NCBI GenBank assembly: GCA_042577045.1
Contig: JBHPEK010000002.1
Span: 389-64,388 of the forward strand
DNA length: 64,000 bases
Source of the DNA: Patescibacteria group bacterium
GTDB lineage: Bacteria; Patescibacteriota; Minisyncoccia; JAHISW01; Tagabacteraceae
Reading direction: 5' to 3'
A program made the position numbers and the translations under genes. Positions 1,124 through 52,751 of this stretch are shown here, piece after piece. The notes under the pieces are model-generated. The model was not told the DNA's origin, ran no database searches, and saw only the letters and a list, made by a program, of their open reading frames with translations. Within the stretch, counting starts at the first letter, position 1, and every line of letters begins with the position of its first letter.

Positions 1124-1130
1124 ATAAATT

Positions 1131-1808
1131 ATGTTTAGTCCTGAAAACTTTTTTAATCTTACAAGCATAGAATTGAGTAGTACAATTATTGTTTTTAATA
1201 TTTTATTTTCTTTTGTATTAGTTTTTTTTATAGCTTGGATTTATAAAAGAACGCATAGCGGTATTTCCTATTCTTCTTCTTTTGTATTTACCATTGTTTT
1301 AATGGGTGTTGTATCAACTGTTATCATGATGGTTGTTAGCCATAATCTTATAGGTGCCGTCGGGCTTTTGGGAGCTTTTTCTCTTTTGCGATTTAGAACA
1401 ATTATTAAAGATACTCGCGACATTGCTTTTGTTTTCTTTTCTTTGGCCATTGGCGTTGCTGTTGGAACTAATAATTATACAATTGCATTGTTGGCTACAA
1501 TTTTGGTCTCTCTTATAATAATTTTTCTTACAAAAATTCGTTTTGGCTCTGCATTAAAAGAAGATTTTGTTCTTACCTTTAATTTGCCGGGTGGTAGTTC
1601 AAATGTTTATAGTAAAGTTTTTTCTAATTTTTTTAAATCTCATGAACTTCTTCATGTTAAAAGTTTCGGTGAAGATAGGCAGGAGTATGCTTTTAGTTTT
1701 ATATTGCAAAAGGATAAAATTTTGGATGATTTCCTTAAAGAGCTAAAAGTTATAAATGATATAGCTGGTGTTGAAATTATCTCAATTAATTCAAGTGTAG
1801 AATATTAA
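1131..1808 (+). CDS. DUF4956-family membrane protein (usual partner of bacterial VTC-domain proteins).
   Basis: It has N-terminal transmembrane helices and a SLLRFRTIIKDTRDIAFVFFSLAIGVAVG motif. Gene order is conserved with the VTC gene. Confidence 0.5.
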   Translation: MFSPENFFNLTSIELSSTIIVFNILFSFVLVFFIAWIYKRTHSGISYSSSFVFTIVLMGVVSTVIMMVVSHNLIGAVGLLGAFSLLRFRTIIKDTRDIAFVFFSLAIGVAVGTNNYTIALLATILVSLIIIFLTKIRFGSALKEDFVLTFNLPGGSSNVYSKVFSNFFKSHELLHVKSFGEDRQEYAFSFILQKDKILDDFLKELKVINDIAGVEIISINSSVEY

Positions 1809-1809
1809 T

Positions 1810-3423: not shown

Positions 3424-3431
3424 GTAAACTT

Positions 3432-4853
3432 ATGAAAATTGCATTTGTTCAAAATTTAATGATGCCTTATTTTGGGATATCTTATATTTCTTCTGTCTTA
3501 AGAAAGGGGGGGCATTTGTCGGAAGTTTTTATAGAAGGGTTACATAAAGATATAGTAAAAGATATTTGTGATGCTCAGCCTGACATTGTTGGTTTTTATT
3601 GTATCACAGGCGAACATCGGTGGGTTGAGAGAACAGCAAGAGAAATAAAGAAGAAGCTGGATATTCCTGTTATAGTTGGAGGGCCGCACCCTACTTATTT
3701 TCCAGAAATGGTGGAGGAGGACGGTATTGATATGATTTGTCGAGGAGACGGGGAGATTGCTGTGTTAGAGTTGATGAATAGGATTGAGAGAAAGGAGAAT
3801 ACTAACAACATAGAAGGAATTTGGTCAAAAGAAGGCGTGGATATTCACAAAAATGGTGTTGGAGAAATGATTGAAGATTTGGAGACCCTTCCTTTGCCGG
3901 ATAGAGATCTTTATGACAAGTATGATTTTTTTAAAGAAGAAACGGAGATTCCAGTGTGTGTTTCTAGGGGGTGTCCGTTTAATTGTACTTTTTGCTACAA
4001 CGCATCCAAGAAGAAGTTATATTTGGGCAAGAAGGTGGTAAGGACAAGGAGTGTTGAGAATATTATGTCCGAGATAACATATTTGCGCAAAGAATATCCT
4101 CTTATGAAATCAATTATTTTCAACGATGATAATTTAGGTTTGTCTCCAGACTGGTTTAACGAGTTTTGTGAAAAATATGCAGGAATTAATGGTCCGCCAT
4201 ATTTTGCCAGTATTCGTGCAGACTTCATAAATGAAAAGACTATTAAAAAATTAAAAAAATCAAATTGTTTCTGTCTTTCTCTTGGGGTTGAAAGTGGAAG
4301 TGCAGAAATGAGAAGAAAGATATTACACAAGAACATACCAGACGAAGTCTATATCAATGCCGCAAAATTAATGAGAGAGAACGGTATAAAAGTAAGAACT
4401 TCGAATATGTTTTTCTTGCCAGGAGAAACTATTGACATGGCTTTTAAAACCGTTTGGTTAAATAAGAAAATGAAAACGGATTATCCGTGGGTTTATCCTC
4501 TCCAGCCTTATCCAGGAACAGAGATTTATGACTATTCGATGAAAAACAATTTCTTGAGAAAGGATTTTTCTTTTGACGACATAGACCCCCTGGGAATTTT
4601 AGAAAGTCCCTTGGAGTCAAAATTAAAAGATGGAAAAAAGATTAAAGTTTTACATAGACTTTTTTATTATGGTGTTAAGGTTCCAGGATTTGTTTATTTA
4701 TTAAAGTTATTTGTTTATATTCCAAACAATTTTGTTTTTGAATTTTTTCATCGTTTTGCAATTTTAATGACTTATGCTAATTATCATCAGGTTAGTTTTT
4801 ACAGGGCGCTAAAGGTGGCATTGCAGGCGAATAAAGTTGAAAAAAGAAAATGA
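3432..4853 (+). CDS. Cobalamin(B12)-binding radical SAM protein (class B).
   Basis: The N-terminal B12-binding Rossmann region contains IVGFYCITGEH...VIVGGPHPT. The radical SAM cluster motif is CPFNCTFC (CxxxCxxC). The stop overlaps the next start (ATGA). Confidence 0.75.
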   Translation: MKIAFVQNLMMPYFGISYISSVLRKGGHLSEVFIEGLHKDIVKDICDAQPDIVGFYCITGEHRWVERTAREIKKKLDIPVIVGGPHPTYFPEMVEEDGIDMICRGDGEIAVLELMNRIERKENTNNIEGIWSKEGVDIHKNGVGEMIEDLETLPLPDRDLYDKYDFFKEETEIPVCVSRGCPFNCTFCYNASKKKLYLGKKVVRTRSVENIMSEITYLRKEYPLMKSIIFNDDNLGLSPDWFNEFCEKYAGINGPPYFASIRADFINEKTIKKLKKSNCFCLSLGVESGSAEMRRKILHKNIPDEVYINAAKLMRENGIKVRTSNMFFLPGETIDMAFKTVWLNKKMKTDYPWVYPLQPYPGTEIYDYSMKNNFLRKDFSFDDIDPLGILESPLESKLKDGKKIKVLHRLFYYGVKVPGFVYLLKLFVYIPNNFVFEFFHRFAILMTYANYHQVSFYRALKVALQANKVEKRK

Positions 4854-6523
4854 AAAATATTTTTAGAAAACATTTTTTATTTATTTTACTATTATTTATT
4901 TTGACGGTTTATCTGGGACTGAAGGCAATACCTAGTAATAGCTGGGATGACTGGGCTTTTGGTTCAGCGCAGACAATGTTAACTATGAGGCATTGGGTTG
5001 AGGATGGAATGATTTATTCTAAGTTTTTATTTATACCGATTGGTTATAGTAAAATTGTTCAATACTTTGATGAACCAGAAATGCGTCGTCACGCCAAGGG
5101 AACAACAACGGGAGAGTTAATGGAGAACAGACTTTATTACACTCATTATCCTGCTGGGTATCTGATTCCACATGGAATTTTAGCTAAAATAGGTTTTGAG
5201 TCTAGGTATTGGTTTAGATTTTTAGCGCTACTTTTTTCTTTGTCGGCGCTTATTTTGATGTATTTCTTTTTTTGTTTTCTCTCAAATAAATTAATTGCCT
5301 TTCTGGCAACCCTCTATTATGCTGGGTCAACAATGTTTTTAGGATTGGCTGATTCTTTGGCTAATCAACCAATAGATGACTTTTTCAGATTTCTAATATT
5401 ACTTTTAAGTGTTTTGGCAGTACGGAATGCTTCCAATGTTAAAAAATTTAGAATTTATAATATCGCAATTTGGGTTTCGTATTTTTTGCTTGCTAGCTCT
5501 TCTTATGATTCCACTTTCTTTGTTTTCGTCTGGCTTGTGGGTCTAGACATTGTTACTGACTGGAATACTAACAAAGATGGTGCGAAGCCCCGTACCAAAA
5601 GATTAAAAGAAATCTTTTTGGTTCGGGGGAAAAAGTGGTTGCTGTGGGGAAGTGCTCCTGTCTTGGCATTTATTTTGCAAATGGCGCAAAATGTTTGGTA
5701 TTTAGGGTGGCGTGATATGTGGCTTGATGTTTACGGTTCTTTTAAATTTCGTACTACATCAGCGCCTGGTTCTGGTTTTTTTGAAAAACATATACGGTCA
5801 ATGTTCTCACCTCTTGTATATTTAGCTGACTTTAGAGCTCGTTTTATTATTCCTATCATTTCATTTTTATTTTTTATTTTTTGGAAATTAAAAAACAAGG
5901 TAAGTTACACTTGGCCCAAAATACAAGTATTAGTTTTGCTCGCTCTGGCTGGATTTGCTTATCCTTTTATTCTTTCTTCAACAGCATATTTCCCATATCA
6001 GGGTAGGCAAATGTTGCCTTTTGTTGGTTTACTGCTGGCTTCTTCTACTATTTTAATTTTTAAAATTTTTAAGGAAAAAAGGGAAATGTCTTTGTATTTA
6101 ATTGGCATGCTACTGCTTGTTGCTAGTCTTTGGTTTGTTCAAGCACAAAGAACATATTCTTACATTCTTGAATGGCCAAATAATACTGTTGATAAAGAGG
6201 TAATTAGTTTTACTAAAGAAATAAAAGACATTGAAGGAGAGAACAAGGTGATTTTTAAGTTAGATGGAACTATTCCTACCCGCCACCACCATGCTTCGCT
6301 GGTTCTTGAGTATTATATGAATATGCCAATTATGTCTTTTAAATATTCTTTTGACTTAGTTCGTGATTATAAGTGGTTAAAAGATCGATCTGAATATCCT
6401 TTTTATTCTGTAGTTTTAACTACTACCGAGGAAGAGTTTAATGAGGCAAATTCTTTGTTTGACGGAGAAGATCAGATCTCTATTATTTATAGACCAGATT
6501 TAAATTTTGATTTAGGAATATGA
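4850..6523 (+). CDS. Polytopic membrane protein, putative GT-C glycosyltransferase. Paralog of 1810..3423.
   Basis: Carries WDDWAFGSAQ...VEDG and the same conserved blocks as 1810..3423. Multiple transmembrane helices and a C-terminal soluble domain. Confidence 0.45.
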   Translation: MKNIFRKHFLFILLLFILTVYLGLKAIPSNSWDDWAFGSAQTMLTMRHWVEDGMIYSKFLFIPIGYSKIVQYFDEPEMRRHAKGTTTGELMENRLYYTHYPAGYLIPHGILAKIGFESRYWFRFLALLFSLSALILMYFFFCFLSNKLIAFLATLYYAGSTMFLGLADSLANQPIDDFFRFLILLLSVLAVRNASNVKKFRIYNIAIWVSYFLLASSSYDSTFFVFVWLVGLDIVTDWNTNKDGAKPRTKRLKEIFLVRGKKWLLWGSAPVLAFILQMAQNVWYLGWRDMWLDVYGSFKFRTTSAPGSGFFEKHIRSMFSPLVYLADFRARFIIPIISFLFFIFWKLKNKVSYTWPKIQVLVLLALAGFAYPFILSSTAYFPYQGRQMLPFVGLLLASSTILIFKIFKEKREMSLYLIGMLLLVASLWFVQAQRTYSYILEWPNNTVDKEVISFTKEIKDIEGENKVIFKLDGTIPTRHHHASLVLEYYMNMPIMSFKYSFDLVRDYKWLKDRSEYPFYSVVLTTTEEEFNEANSLFDGEDQISIIYRPDLNFDLGI

Positions 6524-8560: not shown

Positions 8561-8654
8561 GTTCTTGTGGGGGAGTGTGTGGGGGAGTTGCGTATTTTAG
8601 TTGTTTGTGATAGTTTTGAAAAAAACAAAGAACGTTGACATAAGGAGGATATCT

Positions 8655-9479
8655 ATGAAAGAGAGTAAGATTGCTTTTTTGGAGGAAAAGGCGCTTTGGG
8701 TGCGTCAGCAGGTTTTAGAAATGTGTTTAGCTGCGGGAGCTGGGCATATTGCGCCAGCATTTTCGTGCGCAGACATTTTAACGCTACTTTACTACGGTGA
8801 TATAGTACGAGTGGATCCTAGAAATAGAACTTGGGAAGATCGAGATCGTTTTATTTTGAGCAAAGGTCAGGCTTGTGCCGGTCTTTACCCCATATTGGCT
8901 GATCTTGGATTTTTTCCAGTTGAGGATCTTGTGAATTACTGCCAGAACGGTAGTTATTTGGGCGGACATACGGAATCTAAAGTTCCTGGAGTAGAAACGC
9001 TTACTGGTTCACTTGGGCATGGATTATCTATTGGTCTTGGTATGGCTTTGGCCGCCAAAATGGACAAAAGGGATTATTACACATTTGTTCTTTTGGGGGA
9101 CGGATCGCTTCAAGAAGGTTCAAATTGGGAGGCAGTGATGGCGGCGCAGAAATACGAATTGGATAACTTGATTGCCATTGTTGATAGAAACAATCTGCAA
9201 GCTCTTGATTTTACGACTAATTCTATTGACCCTGGTGACCTTGCCAAGCCATTTGAGGCTTTTGGGTGGGATGTTTATCAAGCAGATGGACATTCTTTTG
9301 AAGAGATGGATATCGTTTTTGATATGGCGACGCAGAATAGAGACGGAAGACCAACAGTTATTATTGCGCATACCACCAAAGGAAAAGGCGTATCTTTTAT
9401 GGAAAACGATCCCAAGTGGCATTTTCGGATCCCTAAAGGTGACGAAATTACCCAAGCCAGAAAGGAGTTGAAAATATGA
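8655..9479 (+). CDS. Transketolase, N-terminal (TPP-binding) subunit of a split transketolase.
   Basis: LGHGLSIGLGMALA, LLGDGSLQEGSNWEA and the HIAP..SCADIL motifs. RBS AAGGAGG lies 7 nt upstream of the ATG at 8655. Confidence 0.8.
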   Translation: MKESKIAFLEEKALWVRQQVLEMCLAAGAGHIAPAFSCADILTLLYYGDIVRVDPRNRTWEDRDRFILSKGQACAGLYPILADLGFFPVEDLVNYCQNGSYLGGHTESKVPGVETLTGSLGHGLSIGLGMALAAKMDKRDYYTFVLLGDGSLQEGSNWEAVMAAQKYELDNLIAIVDRNNLQALDFTTNSIDPGDLAKPFEAFGWDVYQADGHSFEEMDIVFDMATQNRDGRPTVIIAHTTKGKGVSFMENDPKWHFRIPKGDEITQARKELKI

Positions 9480-10414
9480 GAGAATCATTTTTTAACGGCT
9501 TATATGAAGTAATGAAAAAAGATGAGAGGGTGATTCTTTTAAGCTCTGACACAGGCTTTGGTGTAATGAGCCACATTCGGGAAGAATTTCCTGATCGTTG
9601 GTACAATGTAGGGATTGCTGAGCAGAATATGATTGGAATGGCTGCCGGTTTAGCTCTCTGCGGGAAAATTGTCTACGTTTATGCCATTTGTCCTTTTGTA
9701 ACCTTGCGTTGCATAGAGCAGATTAGGGTAGACGTTTGTATCCAAAATCTTAATGTCAATATGGTTGGAGTTGGAGCTGGGTATGATTATGGCACCCTAG
9801 GTGCAACTCATCACGCTTGTGAGGACATTGCGAGCATGAGACTTATGCCCAATATGACTATTCTCAATGCCTCCGATAGTGTTTCTGCTCAATCTTTTGC
9901 TGAATTATCTTACGATACTCCCGGGCCTGTTTATGTTAGGTTTGAACGATATGCGGGAGACGATCTCTATGACAAGAAACAGGCTTTTTTGGGTGGGCTT
10001 AGCACATTAAAGTCTGGTGATGGTGGAACGGTTATAATTTCTGGTGGTAAATTAGTTCATAAAGCGCTTGAAGTTGCCGAAAATCTTTTGGAACATCAGA
10101 TAGGTGCCACAGTAATAGATCTTTACAGAATCAAGCCCTTGAATGTGGAGCTCTTGTTAAGAATACTGTGTCGTGTCAAGAATGTCGTGACCATAGAGGA
10201 ACATAGCATTGTTGGAGGTCTTGGTAGTTCCATAGCCGAATTAATCGTTGATACTGGTTTAGAATGTTCGGTTAAGAGAATTGCTTTGCCGGATGCTTTT
10301 CTTAGAGAATATGGTGATAGAGAATGCCTTCACGAGCTAGTGGGCTTGGATGTTAAGACAATGACGAGCCAGATACTCGTTTGGTTAAGGAATATTCATG
10401 GCGAAGATGTTTGA
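9476..10414 (+). CDS. Transketolase, C-terminal (pyrimidine-binding) subunit.
   Basis: YNVGIAEQNMIGMAAGLALCGK and GATHHACEDIASMRLMPNMT motifs. Start overlaps the N-subunit stop (ATGA). Confidence 0.8.
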   Translation: MRESFFNGLYEVMKKDERVILLSSDTGFGVMSHIREEFPDRWYNVGIAEQNMIGMAAGLALCGKIVYVYAICPFVTLRCIEQIRVDVCIQNLNVNMVGVGAGYDYGTLGATHHACEDIASMRLMPNMTILNASDSVSAQSFAELSYDTPGPVYVRFERYAGDDLYDKKQAFLGGLSTLKSGDGGTVIISGGKLVHKALEVAENLLEHQIGATVIDLYRIKPLNVELLLRILCRVKNVVTIEEHSIVGGLGSSIAELIVDTGLECSVKRIALPDAFLREYGDRECLHELVGLDVKTMTSQILVWLRNIHGEDV

Positions 10415-11324
10415 TAGAAGCAGAATAAAAACAAATCCTCTAGAATCAAGAGAGAACAAGCATTTTGTAAAAGATTTTTTTTCTTTAGATTATGAACCGC
10501 CAGAGTATACTAATAAAGATTTAGATATTCTGGCAGATAGGATTGTTTCAGCTAGAGTAAAAGACAAACCCGTCATTTGGATGATGGGAGCCCATCTTAT
10601 TAGAAGAGGAAACTCTCTCTTTGTTATTGATTTAATTAAGAAGGGTGTAATAACTCACATTGCCACCAATGGTGCTTGCGCTATTCATGATTTTGAATTT
10701 GCTTATATGAATGCGACTTGTGAAGATGTAGAGCGCTATGTAAAAGACGGTCAGTTTGGAAACTGGGAAGAAACAGGCCGATTGATTAATAACGCTGTGA
10801 GTGATGGATATAGATATGGTTTGGGTTTTGGAGAATCTGTTGGAAATATGATTAATCTCAGCACCAAACATAGAGATATTAGTGTTTTTGCTTATGCATG
10901 TATGAAAGGTATCCCAATTACAGTTCACAAATCTATCGGACAAGATATTACCGATCAACATCCTAGTGCCGATTATGAAGCCCTCGGCGGAGCTTCTGGA
11001 AGAGACTTCTTGATCTTTGCAGAAACTATTTCTAAGCTGGAAGGCGGGGGAGTGTTTTTAAATCTTGGTACTCAAGTAATGGGCCCCGAGGTTTACCTCA
11101 AGGCACTTTCTATGGCCAGAAATGTTGCCAATCAAAACGGTTGGAAAATAACAGACTTTATAACTGCTGTTTTTGATATTCGTGAAGATCCTGATTATTT
11201 TTTTCGTCCCAAGAAAACAATTCTTGAAAGAACTGTTAAAGACGGCGGAGAAAGTTTCTATATCCAAGGAGATTTTGCTTTGACAACACCTCATTTATAT
11301 AGAAAAATAGTGGAAAAACTATAA
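10398..11324 (+). CDS. Deoxyhypusine synthase-like (DHS family) NAD-binding protein.
   Basis: The block VIDLIKKGVITHIATNGACAIHDFEFAY matches the DHS core pattern (LIK-G--D-I-TT-GA-IEHD). MMGAHLIRRG resembles the DHS SSGLR region. Length about 308 aa. Confidence 0.45.
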   Translation: MAKMFDRSRIKTNPLESRENKHFVKDFFSLDYEPPEYTNKDLDILADRIVSARVKDKPVIWMMGAHLIRRGNSLFVIDLIKKGVITHIATNGACAIHDFEFAYMNATCEDVERYVKDGQFGNWEETGRLINNAVSDGYRYGLGFGESVGNMINLSTKHRDISVFAYACMKGIPITVHKSIGQDITDQHPSADYEALGGASGRDFLIFAETISKLEGGGVFLNLGTQVMGPEVYLKALSMARNVANQNGWKITDFITAVFDIREDPDYFFRPKKTILERTVKDGGESFYIQGDFALTTPHLYRKIVEKL

Positions 11325-11343
11325 ATAACACAACGAGTTTAAT

Positions 11344-11380
11344 AAAGAGTCAACATTGTTTGGCTCTTTTTTTGATGTTA
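11344..11380 (+). repeat. Copy 1 of a 37-nt intergenic element (AAAGAGTCAACATTGTTTGGCTCTTTTTTTGATGTTA). Terminator-like hairpin plus T-run.
   Basis: Identical to 22391..22427. Both copies are preceded by CACAACGA and followed 40-50 nt later by (A)AGGAGG and a start codon. Confidence 0.7.
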
Positions 11381-11426
11381 CTCTGATGTCAAATGTTTTT
11401 TTTGAAAATAGAATAAGGAGGAAAAA

Positions 11427-12530
11427 ATGACAATTGCCGAAGATACAACCAGCAGACAAATGGATAGCGGAAGTAAGATATTACACCACGAAGATTGGTT
11501 GGAAAAATGGAAAAAAGATCCACTCTCGGTCTACCCTATTTATGTTGAAGCAACACCTGTAGGATATTGTAATCACCGTTGTGTTTTTTGCGCTTTTGAC
11601 TATATTGGGTACAAGAACATATCATTATCCGGTGATGTCTTAAAAAAAGTAGCAAAAGAAATGGCCGAAGGTGGAGTAAAAGCTATTCAATATGCCGGAG
11701 AGGGCGAGCCACTTCTTCACCCTGAAATAGCAGATATTATTCGCTATACCGCTGATCTAGGAATAGAGGTATCAATGCTTACCAATGGAGTCCTTCTTCG
11801 TGAAAAGTTTGTGAACAAAACAATTAAATCACTTTTGTGGTTTCAGGTGAGCTTAGATGCTGGCACAAAAGAAACCCATTCCAAAATCCATCAAACTTCG
11901 GAAAAAGATTTCGGTACAATTCTTAAGAATTTGTCTTATGCTGTCAAAGAGAGAAACAGACAAAAATCTTCTTGTGATATCGGTGTTCAATTTATTATAT
12001 TACCAGGCAACTTCAAAGAATTGGTAAGGGCTGTTGAAGTGATGAAAGAGACAGGTGTGGATTATATAACAATAAAACCATATTCACACCACTTGCTTAG
12101 CTTACACAGCAAAGAAGAGGTGCTTAAGGAAGGGTTTAATTATACAGACTTGCTGTATTTGGAAAATGATGTGAAAAAAATAGCTGGAACAGATTTGGCA
12201 GTAGATTTTAGAACTGCAGCTATGGACGAGATAGAAACAGAAAGAAACTATAACAGATGTTATGCCACCCCAACGGCCTGGGCGTATATCAGTGCCGATG
12301 GGTCGGTTTATAGTTGTAGCGCTTTTTTGGGAGATGATAGATTTAATGTGGGAAATATTAACGATAATTCCTTTAGCGAAATTTGGATGAGCGAGAAAAG
12401 AAAAAAACATCTGGAAATGATGAAAGGTTTTGACATAAACTCAAACTGTAGAAGGATTTGTAGGATGAATAGAACCAATAGAACTTTGTTTTCTTTGCGA
12501 AATCCACCTTCTAGAGTAAATTTTATCTGA
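11427..12530 (+). CDS. Radical SAM protein with a C-terminal SPASM/twitch Cys cluster. Paralog of 20739..21806.
   Basis: CNHRCVFC (CxxxCxxC). C-terminal Cys-rich region CYATPTAWAYISADGSVYSCSAF...CRRICR. The leader GAAAATAGAATAAGGAGG is shared with the 20739 gene. Confidence 0.7.
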   Translation: MTIAEDTTSRQMDSGSKILHHEDWLEKWKKDPLSVYPIYVEATPVGYCNHRCVFCAFDYIGYKNISLSGDVLKKVAKEMAEGGVKAIQYAGEGEPLLHPEIADIIRYTADLGIEVSMLTNGVLLREKFVNKTIKSLLWFQVSLDAGTKETHSKIHQTSEKDFGTILKNLSYAVKERNRQKSSCDIGVQFIILPGNFKELVRAVEVMKETGVDYITIKPYSHHLLSLHSKEEVLKEGFNYTDLLYLENDVKKIAGTDLAVDFRTAAMDEIETERNYNRCYATPTAWAYISADGSVYSCSAFLGDDRFNVGNINDNSFSEIWMSEKRKKHLEMMKGFDINSNCRRICRMNRTNRTLFSLRNPPSRVNFI

Positions 12531-12542
12531 GGAGAGGCTTAA

Positions 12543-13442
12543 ATGAAATACAGAAAACTTGGAAGAACCAATTTACAAGTATCTGAACTTGGTTTTGGGG
12601 CTTGGGCTATTGGTGGGGCTTTGAAACTCGGTGAACAAAGTTTAAGTTATGGCCAAACTAGCAATAAGGAATCGCTAAGAGCATTGAGAGTAGCTATGGA
12701 CAATGGTATCAACTTTTTTGATACGGCAGATATATATGGTGATGGTTTGAGTGAACAATTGATTGGGCAGGCAATAAAAGGGAGACGAGGTGAAGTTGTT
12801 GTCGCCACTAAAGTTGGCAATGTGGTCAAAAGAGATGAGCTTCGGTTTGATTTATCATATAGTCATATCGTAGAAGCTTGCGAGAAAAGTCTAAAGCGAT
12901 TAGGAACCGACTATATTGATCTTTATCAACTACATTTTCCACCAGAATCTGATGAATATCTCGAGGCGCTGGGAGAACTGAAAAAGGAAGGCAAGATAAG
13001 ATTCGCTGGGGTAAGCATTGCGCATCAATTTGATAAAGCGAAACAGTTTATGGAAAGTGAAGTGATAGACACACTTCTTCTGTATTACAATCTGTTACTT
13101 AGAACTGCTGAAGATGTTGTACTGAATCATGCGAGAAGGCATAATATCGGGATTATAGTTGCCTCTCCATTGTCTCGTGGTCTTTTGACAGGTAAATTTG
13201 GCAAGAATATAAATTTTTCGGCAGAAGATGTTCGGTCAAGGTGGAACGATGGAGAAAAGGACAGAGATTGGTTTTTGGAACAACTGGAGGCAGTTGCAAA
13301 AATCAAGAGTAAACTAACAGTAAACAACGAAAGGTTAACAAATTTTTCTTTAAATTTTCCACTTTGGCACCCTGCTGTTTCAACGGTTATTGCCGGAATG
13401 AAAAACGAGGAACAATTGTTACAAAATTTAAAATCTTTTTAA
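12543..13442 (+). CDS. Aldo/keto reductase family oxidoreductase.
   Basis: LGFGAWAIGG, FFDTADIYGDGLSEQLIG, IDLYQLH and IVASPLSRGLLTGK motifs. Confidence 0.8.
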   Translation: MKYRKLGRTNLQVSELGFGAWAIGGALKLGEQSLSYGQTSNKESLRALRVAMDNGINFFDTADIYGDGLSEQLIGQAIKGRRGEVVVATKVGNVVKRDELRFDLSYSHIVEACEKSLKRLGTDYIDLYQLHFPPESDEYLEALGELKKEGKIRFAGVSIAHQFDKAKQFMESEVIDTLLLYYNLLLRTAEDVVLNHARRHNIGIIVASPLSRGLLTGKFGKNINFSAEDVRSRWNDGEKDRDWFLEQLEAVAKIKSKLTVNNERLTNFSLNFPLWHPAVSTVIAGMKNEEQLLQNLKSF

Positions 13443-13445
13443 GTA

Positions 13446-13476
13446 AAATACCACTTCATATGAAGTGGTATTTTTT
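13446..13476. terminator. Bidirectional intrinsic terminator between convergent genes.
   Basis: Perfect 10-bp stem TACCACTTCA/TGAAGTGGTA flanked by an A-run and a T-run. Confidence 0.6.
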
Positions 13477-13485
13477 AATAAATAG

Positions 13486-15370: not shown

Positions 15371-16747
15371 ATGAAAAACTTGTGGATTTTATCAGAAGAG
15401 AGGCCCAAACATGAAGTTGTAAAAACAATAATTAAAAAATTTACTTCAGACAAAAGAGTTTCATGTAAAATTAAAGATTTAAAAATTTTACCACTTGTGT
15501 CAGATGGATGTTTCTTGTTTAAGTATGAAGTAACTGGGTTTAAATGTAAGAAAATAGAAAAAATTTTTATAAAATTGGCAAGTGGTGAATCAAGTTTTGT
15601 TGATTTCTTGCTTTTTTACCAAAAACAAGAACCAAGGGATGATTCCGTTCCCAGTTATGCCATAGAAGAAACAAAAACAAGTGACACAGAATCTCGCAAT
15701 ACTGGTGTTTATCAGCGGTGTAGCAAGTTTGTTTTTATTGATTATTATTATCCGAAAATTAAGAAGATAATGTTGCATAATAGTTTATTGCAAAAAAACA
15801 AGAAGCCAACAGAAACCAATATATTTGGTACACGAATGCTACTCACAGACAGGGTAGAAATTATGGGTAGGAAAGTTGATAAAAACACAAAAATCTTTAA
15901 AAATCTTGAAGAGTTAATTCAAGCAAAGAACGCAATGAAAGCTCCCTTCTACGGCTTGCCTATACGTATTAAAAAACAAAAGAACAAAATTTTTATTTCT
16001 GGAAGACTTTACAAATCGAGTGGTATTAATCATGATCCAAATATCGGTGCATTAACCATGATAGCACAAAACATACGCAAGTGGGACAAAAAAAGTAAAA
16101 TTATTATTACTGACCATGGGTTGAAACAAGAGCATGTTGGAAAGAGAAATAAATTTATTCTTATTGCCAATCGATTGAATATTAAATTAGAAGGACTAAC
16201 TATTCCTAAAACAAAAGAACATAAATCATACTGGCATTATGAGACCAAGCAAGAAAAAATCGGCACGATCTTTGTTCATATGAGTATCTTGGCATTTACT
16301 AAGGGGAAAATTATTTACGAAAACCATGGCGGTTGTGAACGAGGATATTTTGTTGGTAAGTCAAATTTGGTTGCTGTCAAAAAATATCAAGACGGTAAAA
16401 GAAGAGATTACAAAAGCGGGAACAAAACAGCAATTATCTATCTTCCCGATATTGTGGTTTGGGATCCGGTAAGGGAGGAAGTTGTTAATGCAGAGGGAAA
16501 AACATATTTGAAAAGGAAAAATGGAATAAAAGAGTTATCTAATTATAATTATTTCGAAAAGAATCTTATAAAGCCAGAGTATAATCCTAAAAGTATAAAA
16601 AGAATCGTTATTACTTTTGGCGGAAAAAAGAACAAAATTCGCGAGAAAAAAATAGGTTTTCATCTCAACGAAAACGGAGGAATTATTATAGGAAAAAATA
16701 CTCCTAAAATTATCACTGAGGCAGTAAATAAACTATTGTCTGCTTAA
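15371..16747 (+). CDS. Hypothetical 458-aa protein, convergent with two Dam-family methyltransferases. Speculative restriction-endonuclease candidate.
   Basis: No recognisable family motif. A possible D-x10-E-T-K (PD-ExK-like) stretch lies at RDDSVPSYAIEETK. Call rests on gene context only. Confidence 0.2.
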   Translation: MKNLWILSEERPKHEVVKTIIKKFTSDKRVSCKIKDLKILPLVSDGCFLFKYEVTGFKCKKIEKIFIKLASGESSFVDFLLFYQKQEPRDDSVPSYAIEETKTSDTESRNTGVYQRCSKFVFIDYYYPKIKKIMLHNSLLQKNKKPTETNIFGTRMLLTDRVEIMGRKVDKNTKIFKNLEELIQAKNAMKAPFYGLPIRIKKQKNKIFISGRLYKSSGINHDPNIGALTMIAQNIRKWDKKSKIIITDHGLKQEHVGKRNKFILIANRLNIKLEGLTIPKTKEHKSYWHYETKQEKIGTIFVHMSILAFTKGKIIYENHGGCERGYFVGKSNLVAVKKYQDGKRRDYKSGNKTAIIYLPDIVVWDPVREEVVNAEGKTYLKRKNGIKELSNYNYFEKNLIKPEYNPKSIKRIVITFGGKKNKIREKKIGFHLNENGGIIIGKNTPKIITEAVNKLLSA

Positions 16748-17794
16748 TAAATATAATTGTTCTCGTATGCGCTTTTTGTGTTGCGAGTCTCCGTTACTAT
16801 TACTTTTGAATCTTAAATAATCAATCTCTTTTAATTTTACATCGCCGTATTTTTTAAGAGTTTTCATTATTTCTTTTTGGGGCATAATTCCTTCAGAATT
16901 ATAGCTTAGCACTAAAGTTTTATATTTTGCCGAGAGAGCTATTTTATCAAGCGCTTCTATTGCTGTTTTTACATTACAAAACTCTGATTTTTGATGACTA
17001 TAATTACGCATTCCAGTCACGCCTTTAATTTCTGGGTTGTCATATTTTGCAACAGTTTCTAGTAGATGATAATTACCTCCATACTGCCTGCTGTTATACG
17101 GAGGGTCGATATACAAAACATCTGTTTCTAAATTATCCAAAAGATGCATGCTGTCTTGGTTATATACCCAGTGTTTTTTGTTTCCTGCATAAATCTTTAT
17201 TGGTTTTAGTTCAAATTTCTTTGTTGCGCGGGGATCATAATTTTTAAGGAAGGCGGCATAAACACCAGAAATATTTGCATAAAACGGCACACTTTCTACC
17301 AACATTGCCAGTAATACAAAATATTCATTTTTACTTATCAATTTTTGTTCGTTCCATTTTTCTATTTGTATTCTTATTGCATCAATTTTTTTTCCATTAT
17401 TACCTGTAAAATATTTTCTTGGATATTCTTGTTTGTTTGTTCCTTCAGGTGTGTAATTTTTATAAATAAAACCACTAACTCCTTTGAGGCTATTTAAATA
17501 TTCTCGCATTTTATCCAATGGAGAAATGAAAAGAGTGGTTCGCGGAATAGTGATTGTTTTTGAAAGTTTTGAAAAGTCAGGTTCCTTGTTGTTTTTTATA
17601 TAAGCTTTTTGAAGGACATAAGAAAAATAAAGTACATCGGAAGAAATAACCTGAAATCCTTTCTCTTTAAAATACCTGCCTACATTACTGGTGCCAGAAA
17701 AAAAATCACAAAATACACCATCTTTTATTTCTGTGGAACAGATAACTTCGTAAATATTCTCTAACAGTTTTTCTTTATTGCCTATAAAACGCAT
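16733..17794 (-). CDS. N6-adenine DNA methyltransferase, D12 class (T4 Dam-like, alpha group).
   Basis: N-terminal FIGNKEKLL and FCDFFSGTSNVG (motif I), then LYIDPPYN (motif IV) about 190 aa later. Confidence 0.75.
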   Translation of the reverse strand: MRFIGNKEKLLENIYEVICSTEIKDGVFCDFFSGTSNVGRYFKEKGFQVISSDVLYFSYVLQKAYIKNNKEPDFSKLSKTITIPRTTLFISPLDKMREYLNSLKGVSGFIYKNYTPEGTNKQEYPRKYFTGNNGKKIDAIRIQIEKWNEQKLISKNEYFVLLAMLVESVPFYANISGVYAAFLKNYDPRATKKFELKPIKIYAGNKKHWVYNQDSMHLLDNLETDVLYIDPPYNSRQYGGNYHLLETVAKYDNPEIKGVTGMRNYSHQKSEFCNVKTAIEALDKIALSAKYKTLVLSYNSEGIMPQKEIMKTLKKYGDVKLKEIDYLRFKSNSNGDSQHKKRIREQLYLLSRQ

Positions 17795-17795
17795 T

Positions 17796-19304
17796 TTAGT
17801 AATTCATTATCAATACCTCGCTTACTTTACCTCTTTTGTCAGCTTTACAGTTGAGCGATCTGTTGGATTCTACTTTTTCAATTTTATAATCCTTATAAAG
17901 AGTATTTATAAATTTGCAGTTGGAATTAGAAAGCATTATTTTTACTCCTTTTTTAGTAAGTTTGTTTATTAAGGTCTTTAAGCGTTCCTGATCCTCTTTA
18001 AAAAATTTTTCTTTTGTATATCGAGTAAAATTAGAATATTCCGAAATTGGATGATAGGGCGGATCAAGATAAACAAAATCGTCCTTTTTGGCTCCCTGAA
18101 GTGTTTTTTCAAAATCATCACATTTTATATCAGCCTCTTTAAGAATTTTGCTATCAGCTTTTATTGTTCCTTCGTCGCATATTAATCGATTTAAAGAACT
18201 ACCGATTGGAACATTGAATTGACTTTTTTTATTAACGCGATAAACACCATTAAACCCTGCTTGATTTAAATAAATCATGCGAGCAGCAATCTCTGCACTG
18301 TTTAATTCGTTGAAAATATTTATCTCGCGATCGAGTACACGAATTTTCATATATAATTCTTTTGAATGACGCTTTTTTAATTCTTTCAATAATTTAATTA
18401 CTTCTTCTGGATTGTCTCTAATTCCTTCGCAGGTCTTAATAAGTTCTAAGTTATTATCGTTGAGAACGGCCTTGTTTGGTTTTAAGTAAAAATACATTGC
18501 TCCGCCTCCCAAAAAGGGTTCATAAAAAGTATTGAATTTTGTGGGGAGAAATTTTTTGTATTGAGAAATCATTCCCCGTTTTCCTCCAACCCATTGAAGA
18601 AATGGCTTAATTTCTTTTTTTGTATCACTGGTTATTCTTCTCGCATGACTTGTGTAAGGGAATCGATAAATAATGTCTGCGAGTATTTCGATTTCATCTT
18701 TTTTAATTTCGAGGTTTCTAATTATGTTTATTACCACACCTCTTATTTCCACATCGGTTCTAAAGAAGGGGAGCATGGCTTGATTCATTGGCTGGAGTCT
18801 GATTCTGTCTTTTTCTTTGTATATTTTTTTTAGCGTTGCTTGGTTGTTGTCAATAATGGCCACAACTGTCTGGCCGTTATCTGCAGTTTTTTGTTCTTTA
18901 ATTACGACTGTGTCTCCGTCAAAAATTCCTTCTTCAATCATACTATCGCCCTTAACGCGTAGAGCGTAATGCTTACCCGAAGCGCTTAAGGTATTTTTTG
19001 CTACAGATATTGTTTCGCCAGGAATTTCTATGGCTTCTATTGGTTCACCAGCCGAGATGGTTCCAAGTAGTGGAATTTCTAGGATTGTTTTTGTTTCCAT
19101 TAGTTCAATAGATCGGGCGTGGCCTTTATTTTGTTTGATGTAGCCCTTTGTATCCAAAGCAGAAAGATGTTGGTGGACTGTTGGTTTTGATAACTTAAAC
19201 TTTTTTCCTGTTTCCTCGAGAGTAGGAGAGAATCCATTCTTTTCCTGAAAAGATTTTATGAAGTCTAGAACATTTTTTTGCTTCTTGGTAAGTGGTGTTG
19301 TCAT
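17796..19304 (-). CDS. Fusion protein: LexA-like repressor (winged HTH plus S24 peptidase) N-terminal to an E. coli Dam-like N6-adenine methyltransferase.
   Basis: N-terminal part: KQKNVLDFIKSFQEKNGFSPTLEE...SKPTVHQHL (LexA DNA-binding domain), then LLGTISAGEPIEA...RVKGDSMIEEGIFDGDTVVI and ATLKKI (S24 Ser/Lys dyad). C-terminal part: FLQWVGGKRG, EPFLGGGA, LNQAGFNGVYRVN...FNVPIG and YLDPPY, which align with E. coli Dam. Confidence 0.7.
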   Translation of the reverse strand: MTTPLTKKQKNVLDFIKSFQEKNGFSPTLEETGKKFKLSKPTVHQHLSALDTKGYIKQNKGHARSIELMETKTILEIPLLGTISAGEPIEAIEIPGETISVAKNTLSASGKHYALRVKGDSMIEEGIFDGDTVVIKEQKTADNGQTVVAIIDNNQATLKKIYKEKDRIRLQPMNQAMLPFFRTDVEIRGVVINIIRNLEIKKDEIEILADIIYRFPYTSHARRITSDTKKEIKPFLQWVGGKRGMISQYKKFLPTKFNTFYEPFLGGGAMYFYLKPNKAVLNDNNLELIKTCEGIRDNPEEVIKLLKELKKRHSKELYMKIRVLDREINIFNELNSAEIAARMIYLNQAGFNGVYRVNKKSQFNVPIGSSLNRLICDEGTIKADSKILKEADIKCDDFEKTLQGAKKDDFVYLDPPYHPISEYSNFTRYTKEKFFKEDQERLKTLINKLTKKGVKIMLSNSNCKFINTLYKDYKIEKVESNRSLNCKADKRGKVSEVLIMNY

Positions 19305-24001: not shown

Positions 24002-24011
24002 GGAGAATGCA

Positions 24012-25937: not shown

Positions 25938-25950
25938 TATAAAAAACAAA

Positions 25951-52727: not shown

Positions 52728-52751
52728 ATTAATTTAATTTCTTTATAAATT

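What the first reader, a model, noticed from the sequence alone, without database searches (positions are those of the whole stretch)
8655..13442. Split transketolase, DHS-like protein, SPASM radical SAM and aldo/keto reductase sub-operon embedded in the glycan locus
A two-subunit transketolase placed inside a polysaccharide locus, rather than with pentose-phosphate genes, suggests ketol transfer to make a higher-carbon (heptose/octose) or rearranged sugar. It is followed, with overlapping starts and stops, by a deoxyhypusine-synthase-family protein (an NAD-dependent aminobutyl-transferase fold), a SPASM radical SAM and an AKR. A DHS-like enzyme in sugar chemistry would be non-canonical.
Basis: partly seen in the sequence, partly recalled or inferred. 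Interest (0 to 1): 0.55.

Follow-up and report, generated by a model that had tools for sequence, protein, structure and literature searches.

The report
Heptose-linked sugar-tailoring gene cassette
Five real, tightly packed genes in a candidate-phyla-radiation bacterium's surface-glycan locus look like an uncharacterised toolkit for building a modified seven-carbon (heptose-type) sugar, and its "deoxyhypusine-synthase-like" member belongs to a widespread unstudied protein family that travels with heptose-synthesis genes.

Summary
The five ORFs exist exactly as described (8655–13442, + strand), on a Patescibacteria MAG contig. They form two units: [TK-N, TK-C, 308-aa protein], translationally coupled, then a terminator-like hairpin, then [radical SAM, AKR]. 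The 308-aa protein is not a deoxyhypusine synthase. It gets no Pfam DS hit, and the weak alignment puts the catalytic Lys329 on an invariant Thr. It belongs to the uncharacterised NCBIfam "GSU2086 family", a distant branch of the DHS/LOR-SDH Rossmann superfamily (Foldseek; profile E = 3e-7 to AgrE). Four lines link this family to nucleotide-heptose synthesis: neighbourhoods with GmhA-like and HldE-like genes in several phyla; fusions to SIS, PfkB, HAD/DUF89 and cytidylyltransferase domains; an LPS-core locus with GT9 heptosyltransferases; and a Geobacter Tn-seq phenotype matching hldE and gmhA. The transketolase pair belongs to a clade that keeps the ThDP machinery but has lost half the canonical sugar-phosphate site. 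The clade recurs in glycan loci next to radical SAM genes, so it is not an ordinary pentose-phosphate enzyme. The radical SAM is structurally closest to DesII, a TDP-sugar radical enzyme. The AKR has an intact catalytic tetrad but is not conserved elsewhere. The exact chemistry is inferred, not shown. Verdict: an uncharacterised variant of a known kind, of moderate interest.

The parts
8655..9479 (+). TK-like N-terminal (ThDP/diphosphate-binding) subunit, 274 aa
   Evidence: PF00456 9e-45. Best solved relative is the split-chain transketolase N component 6yak, 230 bits. The GDG...N ThDP-Mg motif and the human His37/His110/His258 equivalents are kept; human His77 is replaced by Gln (LSKGQ), as in the L088 and L089 orthologues. 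SD AAGGAGG precedes ATG 8655.
9476..10414 (+). TK-like C-terminal (pyrimidine-binding plus C domain) subunit, 312 aa
   Evidence: PF02779 + PF02780. 6yaj 172 bits; scores about equally to TK (181 bits) and DXS (176 bits) models, all far below cut-offs. In the query and its 119 closest relatives (120 sequences), the human His416 equivalent is Gly in every sequence, the Ser345 equivalent is mostly hydrophobic (P/I/L/F/V), and the Asp424 equivalent is variable (L/S/D/A/M). Glu366 and Arg474 equivalents are invariant, and the Arg318 equivalent is Arg in 119 of 120 with one gap.
10398..11324 (+).
   Evidence: NF052581 2e-105, 352.6 bits against cut-off 250. No Pfam DS hit. AF2 model pLDDT 87.8, pTM 0.90. 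Foldseek top hits are ArgZ/AgrE, 3C2Q and DHS. Family profile against PDB: AgrE 3.2e-7. The start overlaps the TK-C stop by 17 bp.
11344..11369 (+). Terminator-like hairpin with T run between the 308-aa gene and the radical SAM gene
   Evidence: 10-pair stem, 6-nt loop, tail TTTTGATGTT. It is followed by a promoter-like site at 11386-11414 and SD AAGGAGG before ATG 11427. Consensus matches only; function not shown.
11427..12530 (+). Radical SAM enzyme with abbreviated SPASM/twitch-type C-terminal domain, 367 aa
   Evidence: PF04055 + PF13186. CX3CX2C at C48/C52/C55. Auxiliary Cys at 183, 278, 297 (CX14GX4C) and 341/345 (CX3C) only; C278, C297, C341 and C345 are invariant and C183 nearly invariant in 36 orthologues. 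AF2 pLDDT 93.1. Foldseek top hit is DesII 8hzv, E 9e-18, TM 0.66-0.69.
12543..13442 (+). Aldo/keto reductase, 299 aa
   Evidence: PF00248 4.3e-56. Catalytic tetrad D60/Y65/K90/H131 present in the sequence. Best solved relatives are IolS 1pyf (1.5e-45) and YhdN 1pz1; also MtmW side-chain reductase 6ovq. No orthologue was found in related loci L002, L004 or L086-L089; the single hit was an unrelated position in L021.
13445..13477 (.). Perfect 10-bp hairpin (ATACCACTTC-ATAT-GAAGTGGTAT) flanked by A and T runs, between the convergent AKR and B12-radical SAM genes
   Evidence: Read directly from the sequence. Probable bidirectional terminator, which is an inference.
22475..24001 (+). HldE-like bifunctional protein (cytidylyltransferase-like N, PfkB kinase C), partner of the module
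   Evidence: PF01467 + PF00294. rfaE domain I/II and HldE models hit but below threshold (118 bits against 521). It is 55-58% identical to the HldE-like gene directly adjacent to GSU2086 homologues in L002 and L004.
26059..27582 (+). Second HldE-like paralogue
   Evidence: PF00294 + PF01467; HldE model 144 bits, below threshold.
20739..21806 (+). Second radical SAM/SPASM protein of the same broad type
   Evidence: PF04055 + PF13186. About 28-30% identical to the second radical SAM of L002 and L004.
24012..25937 (+). Fused PDH-E1 alpha+beta-type ThDP enzyme, a second ThDP enzyme of the locus
   Evidence: PF00676 + PF02779 + PF02780; TIGR03182 277 bits and NF006667 272 bits, both below threshold.

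Best explanation
The cassette is the local form of a conserved but uncharacterised module that makes and tailors a nucleotide-activated heptose-type sugar for a surface glycan. It is not pentose-phosphate housekeeping and not polyamine or hypusine chemistry.

Shown here:
1. The 308-aa protein belongs to the GSU2086 family, a distant branch of the DHS/LOR-SDH Rossmann superfamily.
2. That family is genetically tied to the GmhA/HldE/GmhB-type pathway.
3. The TK-like pair belongs to a clade with an intact ThDP apparatus but a remodelled acceptor and phosphate pocket, and the clade lives in glycan loci next to radical SAM genes.
4. The radical SAM is closest in structure to DesII.
5. The AKR has an intact catalytic tetrad.

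Inferred:
1. HldE-like enzymes elsewhere in the locus activate a heptose (or heptose-like) phosphate as an NDP-sugar.
2. The GSU2086-family protein, which keeps both glycine-rich dinucleotide loops and the HDxE motif shared with NAD-binding AgrE, binds NAD or the ADP-sugar itself and performs a redox-neutral step. My preferred guess is an epimerase or isomerase analogous to HldD.
3. The DesII-like radical SAM abstracts a hydrogen from the NDP-sugar to give a keto intermediate.
4. The TK-like ThDP enzyme transfers a two-carbon ketol or acyl unit onto a carbonyl of that sugar, giving a branched or chain-extended product. This would parallel YerE or the AviB1/B2-type E1 enzymes (my own knowledge, not tested here).
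5. The AKR reduces a resulting carbonyl.
For: GSU2086 family membership.

Heptose linkage of the family:
1. Geobacter has the operon gmhB (GSU2084), hldE (GSU2085), GSU2086, gmhA (GSU2087). Tn-seq scores were -3.1 for hldE, -3.2 for GSU2086 and -3.7 for gmhA (PMC5585712).
2. The gene is adjacent to an HldE-like fusion and/or a SIS gene in L002, L004, L086, L087, L089 and L095.
3. Rosetta-stone fusions join the domain to SIS, PfkB, HAD, PfkB+HAD, cytidylyltransferase, and DUF89 phosphatase plus cytidylyltransferase.
4. In L090 it lies with a lipid A acyltransferase and two GT9 heptosyltransferases.
5. IMG/VR contigs carry it with an adjacent GmhB-like HAD or nearby cytidylyltransferase or kinase homologues.

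Fold.

TK-like clade: residue changes. Contexts in L088, L089, L092, L093, L094 and L096 are all glycan or flagellin-glycosylation loci. Four have a B12-radical SAM immediately downstream. Four have HldE-type or GmhA/GmhB/GHMP-kinase-type heptose-pathway genes: L088, L089 and L094, plus L092 with a GHMP kinase only.

Radical SAM. AKR. Two-unit architecture and translational coupling of TK-like and GSU2086 genes.
Against: No biochemical evidence exists for any step.
1. The window has no GmhA-like SIS gene and no obvious GmhB. Its HldE-like genes and the related SIS proteins score far below the curated heptose-enzyme cut-offs, so the sugar may not be a true glycero-manno-heptose.
2. In 80 Poribacteria genomes the GSU2086 homologue has no pathway partner within 10 kb.
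3. NAD binding is inferred from motifs only. Asp292, the equivalent of DHS Asp342, is not conserved across the wider family.
4. The TK-like enzyme keeps both phosphate-binding arginines and is 230 bits similar to a genuine split transketolase, so a sugar-phosphate substrate, including sedoheptulose-7-phosphate supply, is not excluded.
5. The AKR is not conserved in related loci.
6. A terminator-like hairpin separates the radical SAM and AKR genes from the first three, so the five genes need not act on one substrate.
Confidence: 0.6

Rival explanations
1. The transketolase is a functional sugar-phosphate transketolase. Either it is the genome's only (housekeeping) copy that happens to lie in the glycan locus, or it is a dedicated copy that supplies sedoheptulose-7-phosphate as the heptose precursor. 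The rest of the cassette then tailors the heptose.
For: It is strongly similar to the solved split-chain transketolase (230 and 172 bits). The ThDP-Mg motif, the activating Glu and the His37/His110/His258 equivalents are intact. Both phosphate-binding Arg residues are invariant. It co-occurs with heptose-pathway genes whose substrate is a transketolase product. Small Patescibacteria genomes often have few paralogues (general knowledge).
Against: The His416 equivalent is Gly in all 120 clade sequences, the Ser345 equivalent is mostly hydrophobic, and the Asp424 equivalent, which reads the acceptor C2-OH, is not conserved. His77 is replaced by Gln. The same clade occurs in large-genome phyla (Omnitrophota, Elusimicrobia, Planctomycetota, Chloroflexota). 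It also occurs in a Helicobacter flagellin-glycosylation island with no heptose genes within 21 kb. It is nearly always beside radical SAM genes. All TK and DXS equivalog cut-offs are missed by a wide margin.
Confidence: 0.2
2. The 308-aa protein is a true deoxyhypusine or homospermidine synthase-type enzyme that transfers an aminobutyl group from a polyamine onto an amino sugar or protein.
For: It has a DHS-like fold. Some family members give sub-threshold Pfam DS hits, for example P0260 at 25.8 bits against a cut-off of 27. Local alignments place DHS Arg320-Pro321 on R270-P271 and DHS Gly133 and Asp138 on G92 and D98.
Against: The window protein gets no DS hit. It is nearer to the AgrE/ArgZ/LOR-SDH branch. 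Catalytic Lys329 aligns with invariant Thr279, and the spermidine-binding Glu323 aligns with Lys273 (a weak alignment). There are no polyamine genes nearby. The fusions and neighbourhoods point only to sugar-phosphate and nucleotide-sugar enzymes.
Confidence: 0.04
3. The radical SAM/SPASM protein is not a sugar enzyme but a peptide (RiPP or cofactor) maturase, or a prokaryotic viperin-type defence enzyme, placed near the restriction-modification island.
For: The best NCBIfam hit is the tungsten-cofactor radical SAM maturase TIGR04317 at 113.8 bits, and the viperin model gives 66.6 bits. PADLOC pVip gives 75 bits. SuiB, SkfB and anSME appear among the fold matches. A type II R-M system lies 2 kb away.
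Against: All these hits are far below the curated cut-offs (380 and 180). The viperin match covers only the generic core, residues 47-202. The protein has only 4-5 auxiliary Cys rather than the two-cluster SPASM set. The top fold match is the TDP-sugar enzyme DesII. Orthologues sit in glycan loci next to GT2, GSU2086, SIS and TK-like genes. No small precursor ORF was noticed nearby.
Confidence: 0.06

Closest known systems
[quoted passage not shown]
   Same: The same enzyme types surround or are fused to the GSU2086 family: SIS isomerase, PfkB kinase plus cytidylyltransferase-like nucleotidyltransferase, and HAD phosphatase. In Geobacter the founding member sits inside the gmhB-hldE-gmhA operon. 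The window has two HldE-like genes.
   Different: A fifth, uncharacterised DHS/LOR-SDH-fold protein is present. The HldE-like proteins have reversed domain order and score below the equivalog cut-offs. The window has no GmhA or GmhB. No HldD orthologue was seen next to the module: neighbouring SDRs score 57-79 bits against a cut-off of 274.6.
Deoxyhypusine synthase, LOR/SDH proteins and the AgrE/ArgZ C-terminal ornithine cyclodeaminase domain (NAD-cycling Rossmann enzymes)
   Same: The overall fold is shared. So are the G-x6-G loop after strand 1 and the N-G-A-x-x-H-D-x-E segment, which is shared with AgrE and ArgZ. A second glycine-rich loop (GSAVxGPE) lies where DHS has GGGVVKHH; that correspondence rests on my reading of the motifs.
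   Different: Identity is 12-17%, TM only 0.5-0.57, and the Pfam cut-offs are missed. The DHS catalytic Lys is not conserved in the available alignment. The genomic context is sugar-nucleotide rather than amine metabolism.
Split-chain transketolase of Carboxydothermus hydrogenoformans (PDB 6YAK/6YAJ)
   Same: It has the same two-gene architecture, about 50% (N) and 37% (C) similarity by alignment, and the ThDP-binding and catalytic His residues.
   Different: The canonical THxG...GEDGxSHQ segment is replaced by GxGAG..Y...GPTHH, the phosphate-binding Ser is lost, and His77 is replaced by Gln. The gene lies in a glycan locus.
ThDP-dependent two-carbon branching of nucleotide sugars (YerE in yersiniose; AviB1/AviB2 and related E1 alpha/beta pairs in avilamycin- and aldgamycin-type sugars), from my own knowledge
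   Same: A ThDP enzyme is encoded among sugar-nucleotide tailoring genes together with a ketoreductase. Related loci swap in other ThDP enzyme types: an ALS/YerE-type in L095 and a fused E1 alpha/beta in this window.
   Different: Here the ThDP enzyme is of the transketolase lineage. No 4,6-dehydratase lies next to it in this window, and no product is known.
DesII (radical SAM TDP-4-amino-4,6-dideoxyglucose deaminase/dehydrogenase)
   Same: It is the best structural match (E 9e-18, TM 0.66-0.69) and the second-best sequence match among solved structures. It acts on a nucleotide sugar and yields a keto sugar.
   Different: Identity is only 17-18%. The TIGR04426 score is 55 bits against a cut-off of 450. 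The window protein has a C-terminal Cys-rich SPASM/twitch-type domain.

Membership tests
Deoxyhypusine synthase (Pfam DS, PF01916) | Profile match above the gathering threshold | tested here: not met
   No DS hit for the window protein at E <= 0.01. Some family members reach 20-26 bits against a cut-off of 27. Family profile against archaeal DHS 7cmc gives E 6e-3.
Deoxyhypusine synthase (Pfam DS, PF01916) | DHS-type Rossmann fold | tested here: met
   AF2 model pLDDT 87.8. Foldseek finds DHS structures at E 1e-6 to 1e-5, probability 1.0, TM 0.53-0.57.
Deoxyhypusine synthase (Pfam DS, PF01916) | Catalytic lysine (human Lys329) that forms the enzyme-imine intermediate | tested here: not met
   hhalign of the family against verified human DHS aligns Lys329 with invariant Thr279. 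The alignment itself is weak (E 0.33), so this is not definitive. Invariant Arg278 and Lys281 lie nearby.
Deoxyhypusine synthase (Pfam DS, PF01916) | NAD binding | not testable with these tools
   Glycine-rich loops are kept (G64, G71, G92, G224, G229). The Asp342 equivalent, D292, is invariant only among close homologues. No ligand modelling was possible.
NCBIfam NF052581, GSU2086 family protein | HMM score above the curated cut-off over the full length | tested here: met
   352.6 bits against cut-off 250, E 2e-105, residues 5-302 on profile positions 2-300 of 301.
ArgZ-like C-terminal Rossmann domain / LOR-SDH (PF21570) | Profile match above the gathering threshold | tested here: not met
   17.9 bits against 27 for the window protein. 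The family profile against AgrE, ArgZ and 3C2Q is significant (3.2e-7, 1.2e-6, 7.4e-5) but covers only about 100 N-terminal residues. This makes it a remote homologue, not a member.
Transketolase (EC 2.2.1.1) | ThDP-Mg binding motif (GDG...N), cofactor-activating Glu, catalytic His pair | tested here: met
   GDGSLQEG...VDRNNLQ is present, the human His37/His110/His258 equivalents are present, and the Glu366 equivalent E49 is invariant.
Transketolase (EC 2.2.1.1) | Sugar-phosphate and acceptor site: Arg318, Ser345, His416, Asp424, Arg474 (human numbering) | tested here: not met
   Arg474 is kept in all 120 sequences and Arg318 in 119 of 120 (one gap). Ser345 becomes Gly in the window and is mostly hydrophobic in the clade. 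His416 is Gly in all 120. Asp424 becomes Leu in the window and is variable in the clade.
Transketolase (EC 2.2.1.1) | Score above NCBIfam equivalog cut-offs | tested here: inconclusive
   260 bits (N) and 181 bits (C) against a cut-off of 488 for the full-length model NF004559. Split subunits cannot reach a full-length cut-off individually. The C subunit scores equally to DXS at 176 bits.
Radical SAM with SPASM domain | CX3CX2C cluster motif and a PF13186 match | tested here: met
   C48/C52/C55 are present, and PF13186 scores 42.6 bits against 21.5.
Radical SAM with SPASM domain | Full seven-Cys motif for two auxiliary clusters | tested here: not met
   Only CX14GX4C (278/297) and CX3C (341/345), plus C183, are present and conserved in 36 orthologues. 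This is consistent with a single auxiliary cluster (twitch-like), which is an inference.
DesII (TIGR04426) | Equivalog HMM cut-off | tested here: not met
   55.3 bits against 450. The structural resemblance is the best available.
Prokaryotic viperin (NF038283 / PADLOC pVip) | Equivalog HMM cut-off and viperin C-terminal extension | tested here: not met
   66.6 bits against 180. The match is limited to core residues 47-198/202, and the C-terminus is SPASM-type.
Aldo/keto reductase superfamily | PF00248 match and the Asp-Tyr-Lys-His catalytic tetrad | tested here: met
   190.6 bits against 24. D60, Y65, K90 and H131 are seen in the sequence.
ADP-heptose pathway (GmhA/HldE/GmhB/HldD) as encoded in this window | All four enzymes present and above equivalog cut-offs | tested here: not met
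   Two HldE-like proteins score 118 and 144 bits against 521. No SIS/GmhA homologue is present in the 64 kb. No HAD phosphatase or HldD was detected in the annotated ORFs.

The most novel reading that the evidence does not exclude
The GSU2086 family is a previously unrecognised enzyme of nucleotide-heptose biosynthesis. One candidate role is an NAD-cycling or ADP-sugar-binding epimerase or isomerase that replaces or supplements HldD in Geobacter, Poribacteria, CPR bacteria and others. In addition, the TK-like clade plus DesII-like radical SAM would form a new anaerobic route to branched or chain-extended (C9 or longer) heptose-derived sugars.
Probability: 0.2. Interest if true: 0.75.

Novelty: new variant of a known kind. 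Interest (0 to 1): 0.55.

Why it matters
Nucleotide-heptoses are LPS-core building blocks and, as ADP-heptose, potent innate-immune signals, and their pathway is regarded as fully known. A fifth conserved protein would add a step, or an alternative enzyme, to a textbook pathway. This one is fused to every enzyme type of that pathway somewhere in nature, and its Geobacter Tn-seq phenotype matches that of hldE and gmhA. It would also give the DHS/LOR-SDH fold its first role in carbohydrate chemistry. The transketolase-like clade with a remodelled acceptor pocket, always beside radical SAM enzymes, points to unexplored anaerobic carbon-carbon chemistry on surface sugars. Such loci occur in candidate-phyla-radiation bacteria, Elusimicrobia, Omnitrophota and even Helicobacter flagellin-glycosylation islands.

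Tried and rejected
1. GSU2086 as the missing GmhB phosphatase. Rejected because Geobacter has gmhB next door and the domain is fused to HAD or DUF89 phosphatases.
2. The neighbouring SDR genes as HldD, which would argue against an epimerase role. They score only 57-79 bits against 274.6 and look like generic GalE or 4,6-dehydratase types, so this neither supports nor refutes the role.
3. Absence of hldD in Geobacter. The Tn-seq supplements list only gene subsets, so zero hits for hldD or rfaD is inconclusive.
4. The genome-contig scan returned only Poribacteria (80 loci) with no partner genes. It showed the linkage is lineage-specific but was useless for broad co-occurrence statistics.
5. The metagenome scan with the single protein gave only two loci.
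6. Literature searches for GSU2086, heptose plus DHS, and transketolase plus radical SAM plus heptose or flagellin glycosylation found no characterisation. The AgrE search was swamped by the word 'agree'.
8. Idea that the TK-like enzyme uses 5-deoxyribose, the radical SAM by-product, as in 7-deoxysedoheptulose synthesis (PMC8102628, surfaced). It is weakened by the two invariant anion-binding arginines and is kept only as a remote possibility.
9. Viperin, defence or RiPP readings of the radical SAM were rejected (see rivals).

Full report
**Observation.**
- TK-N: 8655..9479.
- TK-C: 9476..10414.
- 308-aa protein: 10398..11324.
- Radical SAM/SPASM: 11427..12530.
- AKR: 12543..13442.

Pfam confirms the transketolase N, pyrimidine-binding and C domains, the radical SAM plus SPASM domains, and the AKR. 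The window is identical in protein sequence to a 69,097-bp contig of a Patescibacteria group bacterium MAG.

The surrounding 0.4–51 kb is one large glycan locus. It contains:
- GT2, GT4 and PMT_2 transferases, a flippase, Bac_transf, Wzy_C, AsnB, a sulfotransferase and methyltransferases;
- five B12-radical SAM genes and three other radical SAM genes;
- a fused E1 alpha/beta ThDP enzyme and two HldE-like genes;
- an inserted type II restriction-modification island.

**Architecture.** ATG 8655 follows a strong AAGGAGG. TK-N and TK-C overlap by ATGA, and TK-C and the 308-aa gene overlap by 17 bp, so these three genes are translationally coupled. After the 308-aa stop comes a 10-pair hairpin with a T run (11344–11369), a promoter-like site (11386–11414) and a new Shine-Dalgarno before the radical SAM gene. 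The radical SAM and AKR genes are 12 bp apart. A perfect 10-bp hairpin lies between the AKR and the convergent B12-radical SAM gene. The "sub-operon" is therefore more likely two units, [TK-N, TK-C, 308 aa] and [radical SAM, AKR]. These are consensus matches only, not shown function.

**The 308-aa protein is not a DHS-family member.**
- Pfam gives no DS hit. The only hit is ArgZ-like_C_2nd at 17.9 bits, below the cut-off of 27.
- NCBIfam places it firmly in NF052581, "GSU2086 family protein" (352.6 bits against 250).
- An AlphaFold model built on 33 homologues is confident (pLDDT 87.8, pTM 0.90).
- Its best Foldseek matches are the ArgZ/AgrE C-terminal domain, the LOR/SDH protein 3C2Q and deoxyhypusine synthases (E 3e-7 to 1e-5, TM 0.5–0.57, 12–17% identity).
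- A more diverse family profile of 60 sequences detects AgrE (3.2e-7), ArgZ (1.2e-6) and 3C2Q (7.4e-5) at sequence level. Archaeal DHS is only marginal at 6e-3.

I verified a human DHS sequence against the PDB and aligned it to the family. Only two weak local alignments (E 0.33 each) were found.
- One maps DHS 98–138 on residues 60–98: N106 on H66, G133 on G92, D138 on D98.
- The other maps DHS 320–351 on residues 270–301: R320-P321 on R270-P271, D342 on D292, and catalytic K329 on invariant T279.

Family membership and the catalytic lysine are not supported, and the protein is closer to the ornithine-cyclodeaminase-type branch than to DHS.

**What the GSU2086 family travels with.** Several independent lines link it to nucleotide-heptose synthesis.
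1. In Geobacter sulfurreducens the founding member lies between hldE (GSU2085) and gmhA (GSU2087), with gmhB (GSU2084) next door. Tn-seq scores on electrodes were -3.1 for hldE, -3.2 for GSU2086 and -3.7 for gmhA (PMC5585712).
2. In metagenomic contigs from other lineages the homologue is adjacent to pathway genes:
   - an HldE-like fusion and a GmhA-like SIS gene (L002, L004, L086);
   - SIS alone (L087);
   - HldE-like and SIS in Elusimicrobia (L089, 44.6% identity);
   - the order radical SAM, GSU2086, SIS (L095, 62.7% identity).
3. An exhaustive profile search found 2,541 cluster representatives. Among them are fusions of the domain to SIS, PfkB, HAD, PfkB+HAD, a cytidylyltransferase-like domain, and DUF89 phosphatase plus cytidylyltransferase. 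These are all four enzyme types of the heptose pathway.
4. In L090 a 42%-identical homologue lies with a lipid A acyltransferase and two GT9 heptosyltransferases.
5. IMG/VR contigs carry it with an adjacent GmhB-like HAD or nearby cytidylyltransferase or kinase homologues.

Because it coexists with and is fused to phosphatases, it is not the phosphatase. The canonical enzyme not seen beside it is the 6-epimerase HldD: neighbouring SDRs score 57–79 bits against 274.6. The superfamily's hallmark is NAD-cycling, redox-neutral catalysis, and HldD works the same way (general knowledge). My preferred but unproven guess is therefore an epimerase or isomerase acting on a heptose phosphate or NDP-heptose. 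Binding of the ADP-sugar itself in the dinucleotide site is an alternative. Eighty Poribacteria genomes carry the gene without partners within 10 kb, so the clustering is lineage-specific.

**The transketolase pair.** Its nearest solved relative is the split-chain transketolase of Carboxydothermus (230 and 172 bits). The ThDP-Mg motif, the activating Glu and three catalytic His residues are intact. The substrate site, however, is remodelled (human numbering):
- His77 becomes Gln.
- Ser345 becomes Gly.
- His416 becomes Gly.
- Asp424 becomes Leu.

In an alignment of the query with its 119 closest relatives (44–62% identity), the pattern holds:
- The His416 position is Gly in all 120.
- The Ser345 position is mostly hydrophobic.
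- The Asp424 position is variable.
- Arg474 is kept in all 120 and Arg318 in 119 of 120, leaving a DXS-like two-arginine anion site.

The C subunit scores equally to transketolase and DXS models. The clade occurs in Elusimicrobia, Omnitrophota, Planctomycetota and Chloroflexota. In every sampled context it lies in a glycan locus:
- L088: TK-N, TK-C, B12-radical SAM, HldE-like.
- L089: GT2, TK-N, TK-C, B12-radical SAM, HD, HldE-like, SIS, GSU2086.
- L092 and L093: TK-N, TK-C among many B12-radical SAM genes and glycosyltransferases.
- L094: SIS, HAD, SDR, SDR, GHMP kinase, TK-N, TK-C, B12-radical SAM.

A more distant pair (40% and 31% identity) sits with an orthologue of the window's radical SAM in a Helicobacter flagellin-glycosylation island, with Maf and flagellin genes. 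I could not check the rest of the MAG for a second transketolase. Even so, the clade-wide residue changes and contexts argue that this is a specialised ThDP carboligase or ketol-transferase of glycan tailoring. A dedicated role in supplying sedoheptulose-7-phosphate remains a live rival, at about 0.2.

**Radical SAM and AKR.** The radical SAM has the CX3CX2C motif. Beyond that it has only a CX14GX4C pair, a CX3C pair and one more Cys, all conserved in 36 orthologues. This suggests a single auxiliary cluster. Every named equivalog is missed by a wide margin. The model is confident (pLDDT 93.1). Its best structural match is DesII, the TDP-sugar radical deaminase/dehydrogenase (E 9e-18, TM 0.66–0.69). 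BlsE, SPASM maturases and viperins rank lower. By sequence, BlsE and DesII are also the best solved relatives. Orthologues (43–63% identity) occur in CPR bacteria, Omnitrophota, Nitrospinota and cultured Campylobacterota, again in glycan loci. The AKR has an intact D60/Y65/K90/H131 tetrad, and IolS and YhdN-type enzymes are its nearest structures. It has no counterpart in the related loci, so it is a local accessory.

**Synthesis.** It is a looser module of a TK-like pair, one or more radical SAM enzymes, an HldE-like activating enzyme, usually a GmhA-like isomerase, and the GSU2086-family protein. This window holds a rearranged version that lacks the isomerase and adds an AKR.

I interpret it as a pathway that makes an NDP-activated heptose-type sugar and then tailors it anaerobically:
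1. radical oxidation or elimination to a keto sugar;
2. ThDP-dependent two-carbon addition;
3. carbonyl reduction.

This parallels known ThDP-dependent branched-sugar pathways (YerE, AviB1/B2; my own knowledge). The interchange of ThDP enzyme types between loci fits that reading: TK-like here, a fused E1 alpha/beta at 24012..25937, and an ALS/YerE-type in L095. The order of steps and the substrates are inferred, not shown.

**Novelty and score.** No paper in the searchable library characterises GSU2086 or this module. NCBIfam has already catalogued the family without a function. This is a new variant of a known kind, nucleotide-heptose synthesis and tailoring. It contains a credible lead for a new enzyme in a textbook pathway and for new ThDP and radical chemistry on sugars. 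Interest is 0.55.

Noticed in passing
window 15371-19304: A type II restriction-modification island is inserted in the glycan locus. It comprises a REase_II-like gene (15371..16747), a Dam-like methyltransferase (16733..17794, minus strand) and a 502-aa protein (17796..19304, minus strand). The 502-aa protein fuses a LexA DNA-binding domain and S24 peptidase to a D12 N6-adenine methyltransferase, which is an unusual fusion.
   Followed up: partly
window 3432-4853, 13486-15051(-), 27656-29356, 37827-39290, 42296-43747(-), plus 11427, 20739, 44360(-): Five B12-binding radical SAM genes and three other radical SAM genes lie in a single glycan locus of about 50 kb in a small-genome CPR bacterium. 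This suggests extensive anaerobic C-methylation or other radical tailoring of the glycan.
   Followed up: no
window 22475-27582: A fused PDH-E1 alpha+beta-type ThDP enzyme (24012..25937) is sandwiched between two HldE-like paralogues (22475..24001 and 26059..27582). It is a second, different ThDP enzyme next to nucleotide-sugar-activating genes.
   Followed up: partly
window 1-64000: No GmhA-like SIS isomerase gene is present in the 64 kb (tblastn with the L002 and L004 SIS proteins). This is despite a GSU2086-family gene and two HldE-like genes, and in related loci SIS is nearly always adjacent.
   Followed up: yes
window 398-6523: VTC-domain (398..1123) and DUF4956 (1131..1808) genes are followed by two paralogous large membrane proteins without any Pfam or NCBIfam hit (1810..3423 and 4850..6523). 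They are 50-60% identical to a protein in L002. The same VTC-DUF4956-membrane protein-methyltransferase-PMT_2 synteny occurs in L002 and partly in L086.
   Followed up: no
window 21803-22375: A 190-aa TIGR04076-family protein (73.7 bits against a cut-off of 33) lies directly after the second radical SAM/SPASM gene. Its function is unknown.
   Followed up: no
L089 9930-12001: In the Elusimicrobia locus the TK-like pair is followed by a B12-radical SAM gene and then an HD-domain phosphohydrolase. This pairing is reminiscent of OxsB/OxsA (my own knowledge), and it precedes HldE-like, SIS and GSU2086 genes.
   Followed up: no
L097-L105 (IMG/VR contigs, up to 268 kb): GSU2086-family homologues (32-42% identity) occur on nine contigs classified as viral. 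L097 has a GmhB-like HAD immediately upstream. L098, L102 and L103 have cytidylyltransferase or kinase homologues nearby. Whether these are true phage genes or host contamination was not examined.
   Followed up: partly
L096 (Helicobacter sp. GCA_027859255.1), 1-21095: A flagellin-glycosylation island (Maf, flagellin) carries an orthologue of the window's radical SAM, a split TK-like pair, several methyltransferases and at least six further radical SAM or SPASM ORFs, some apparently split.
   Followed up: partly
window 8001-10000, 24001-26000, 52001-54000: G+C content rises locally to 0.41-0.42 against a background of 0.30-0.37. The first two peaks coincide with the two ThDP enzyme genes. This could reflect strong protein conservation or foreign origin.
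   Followed up: no
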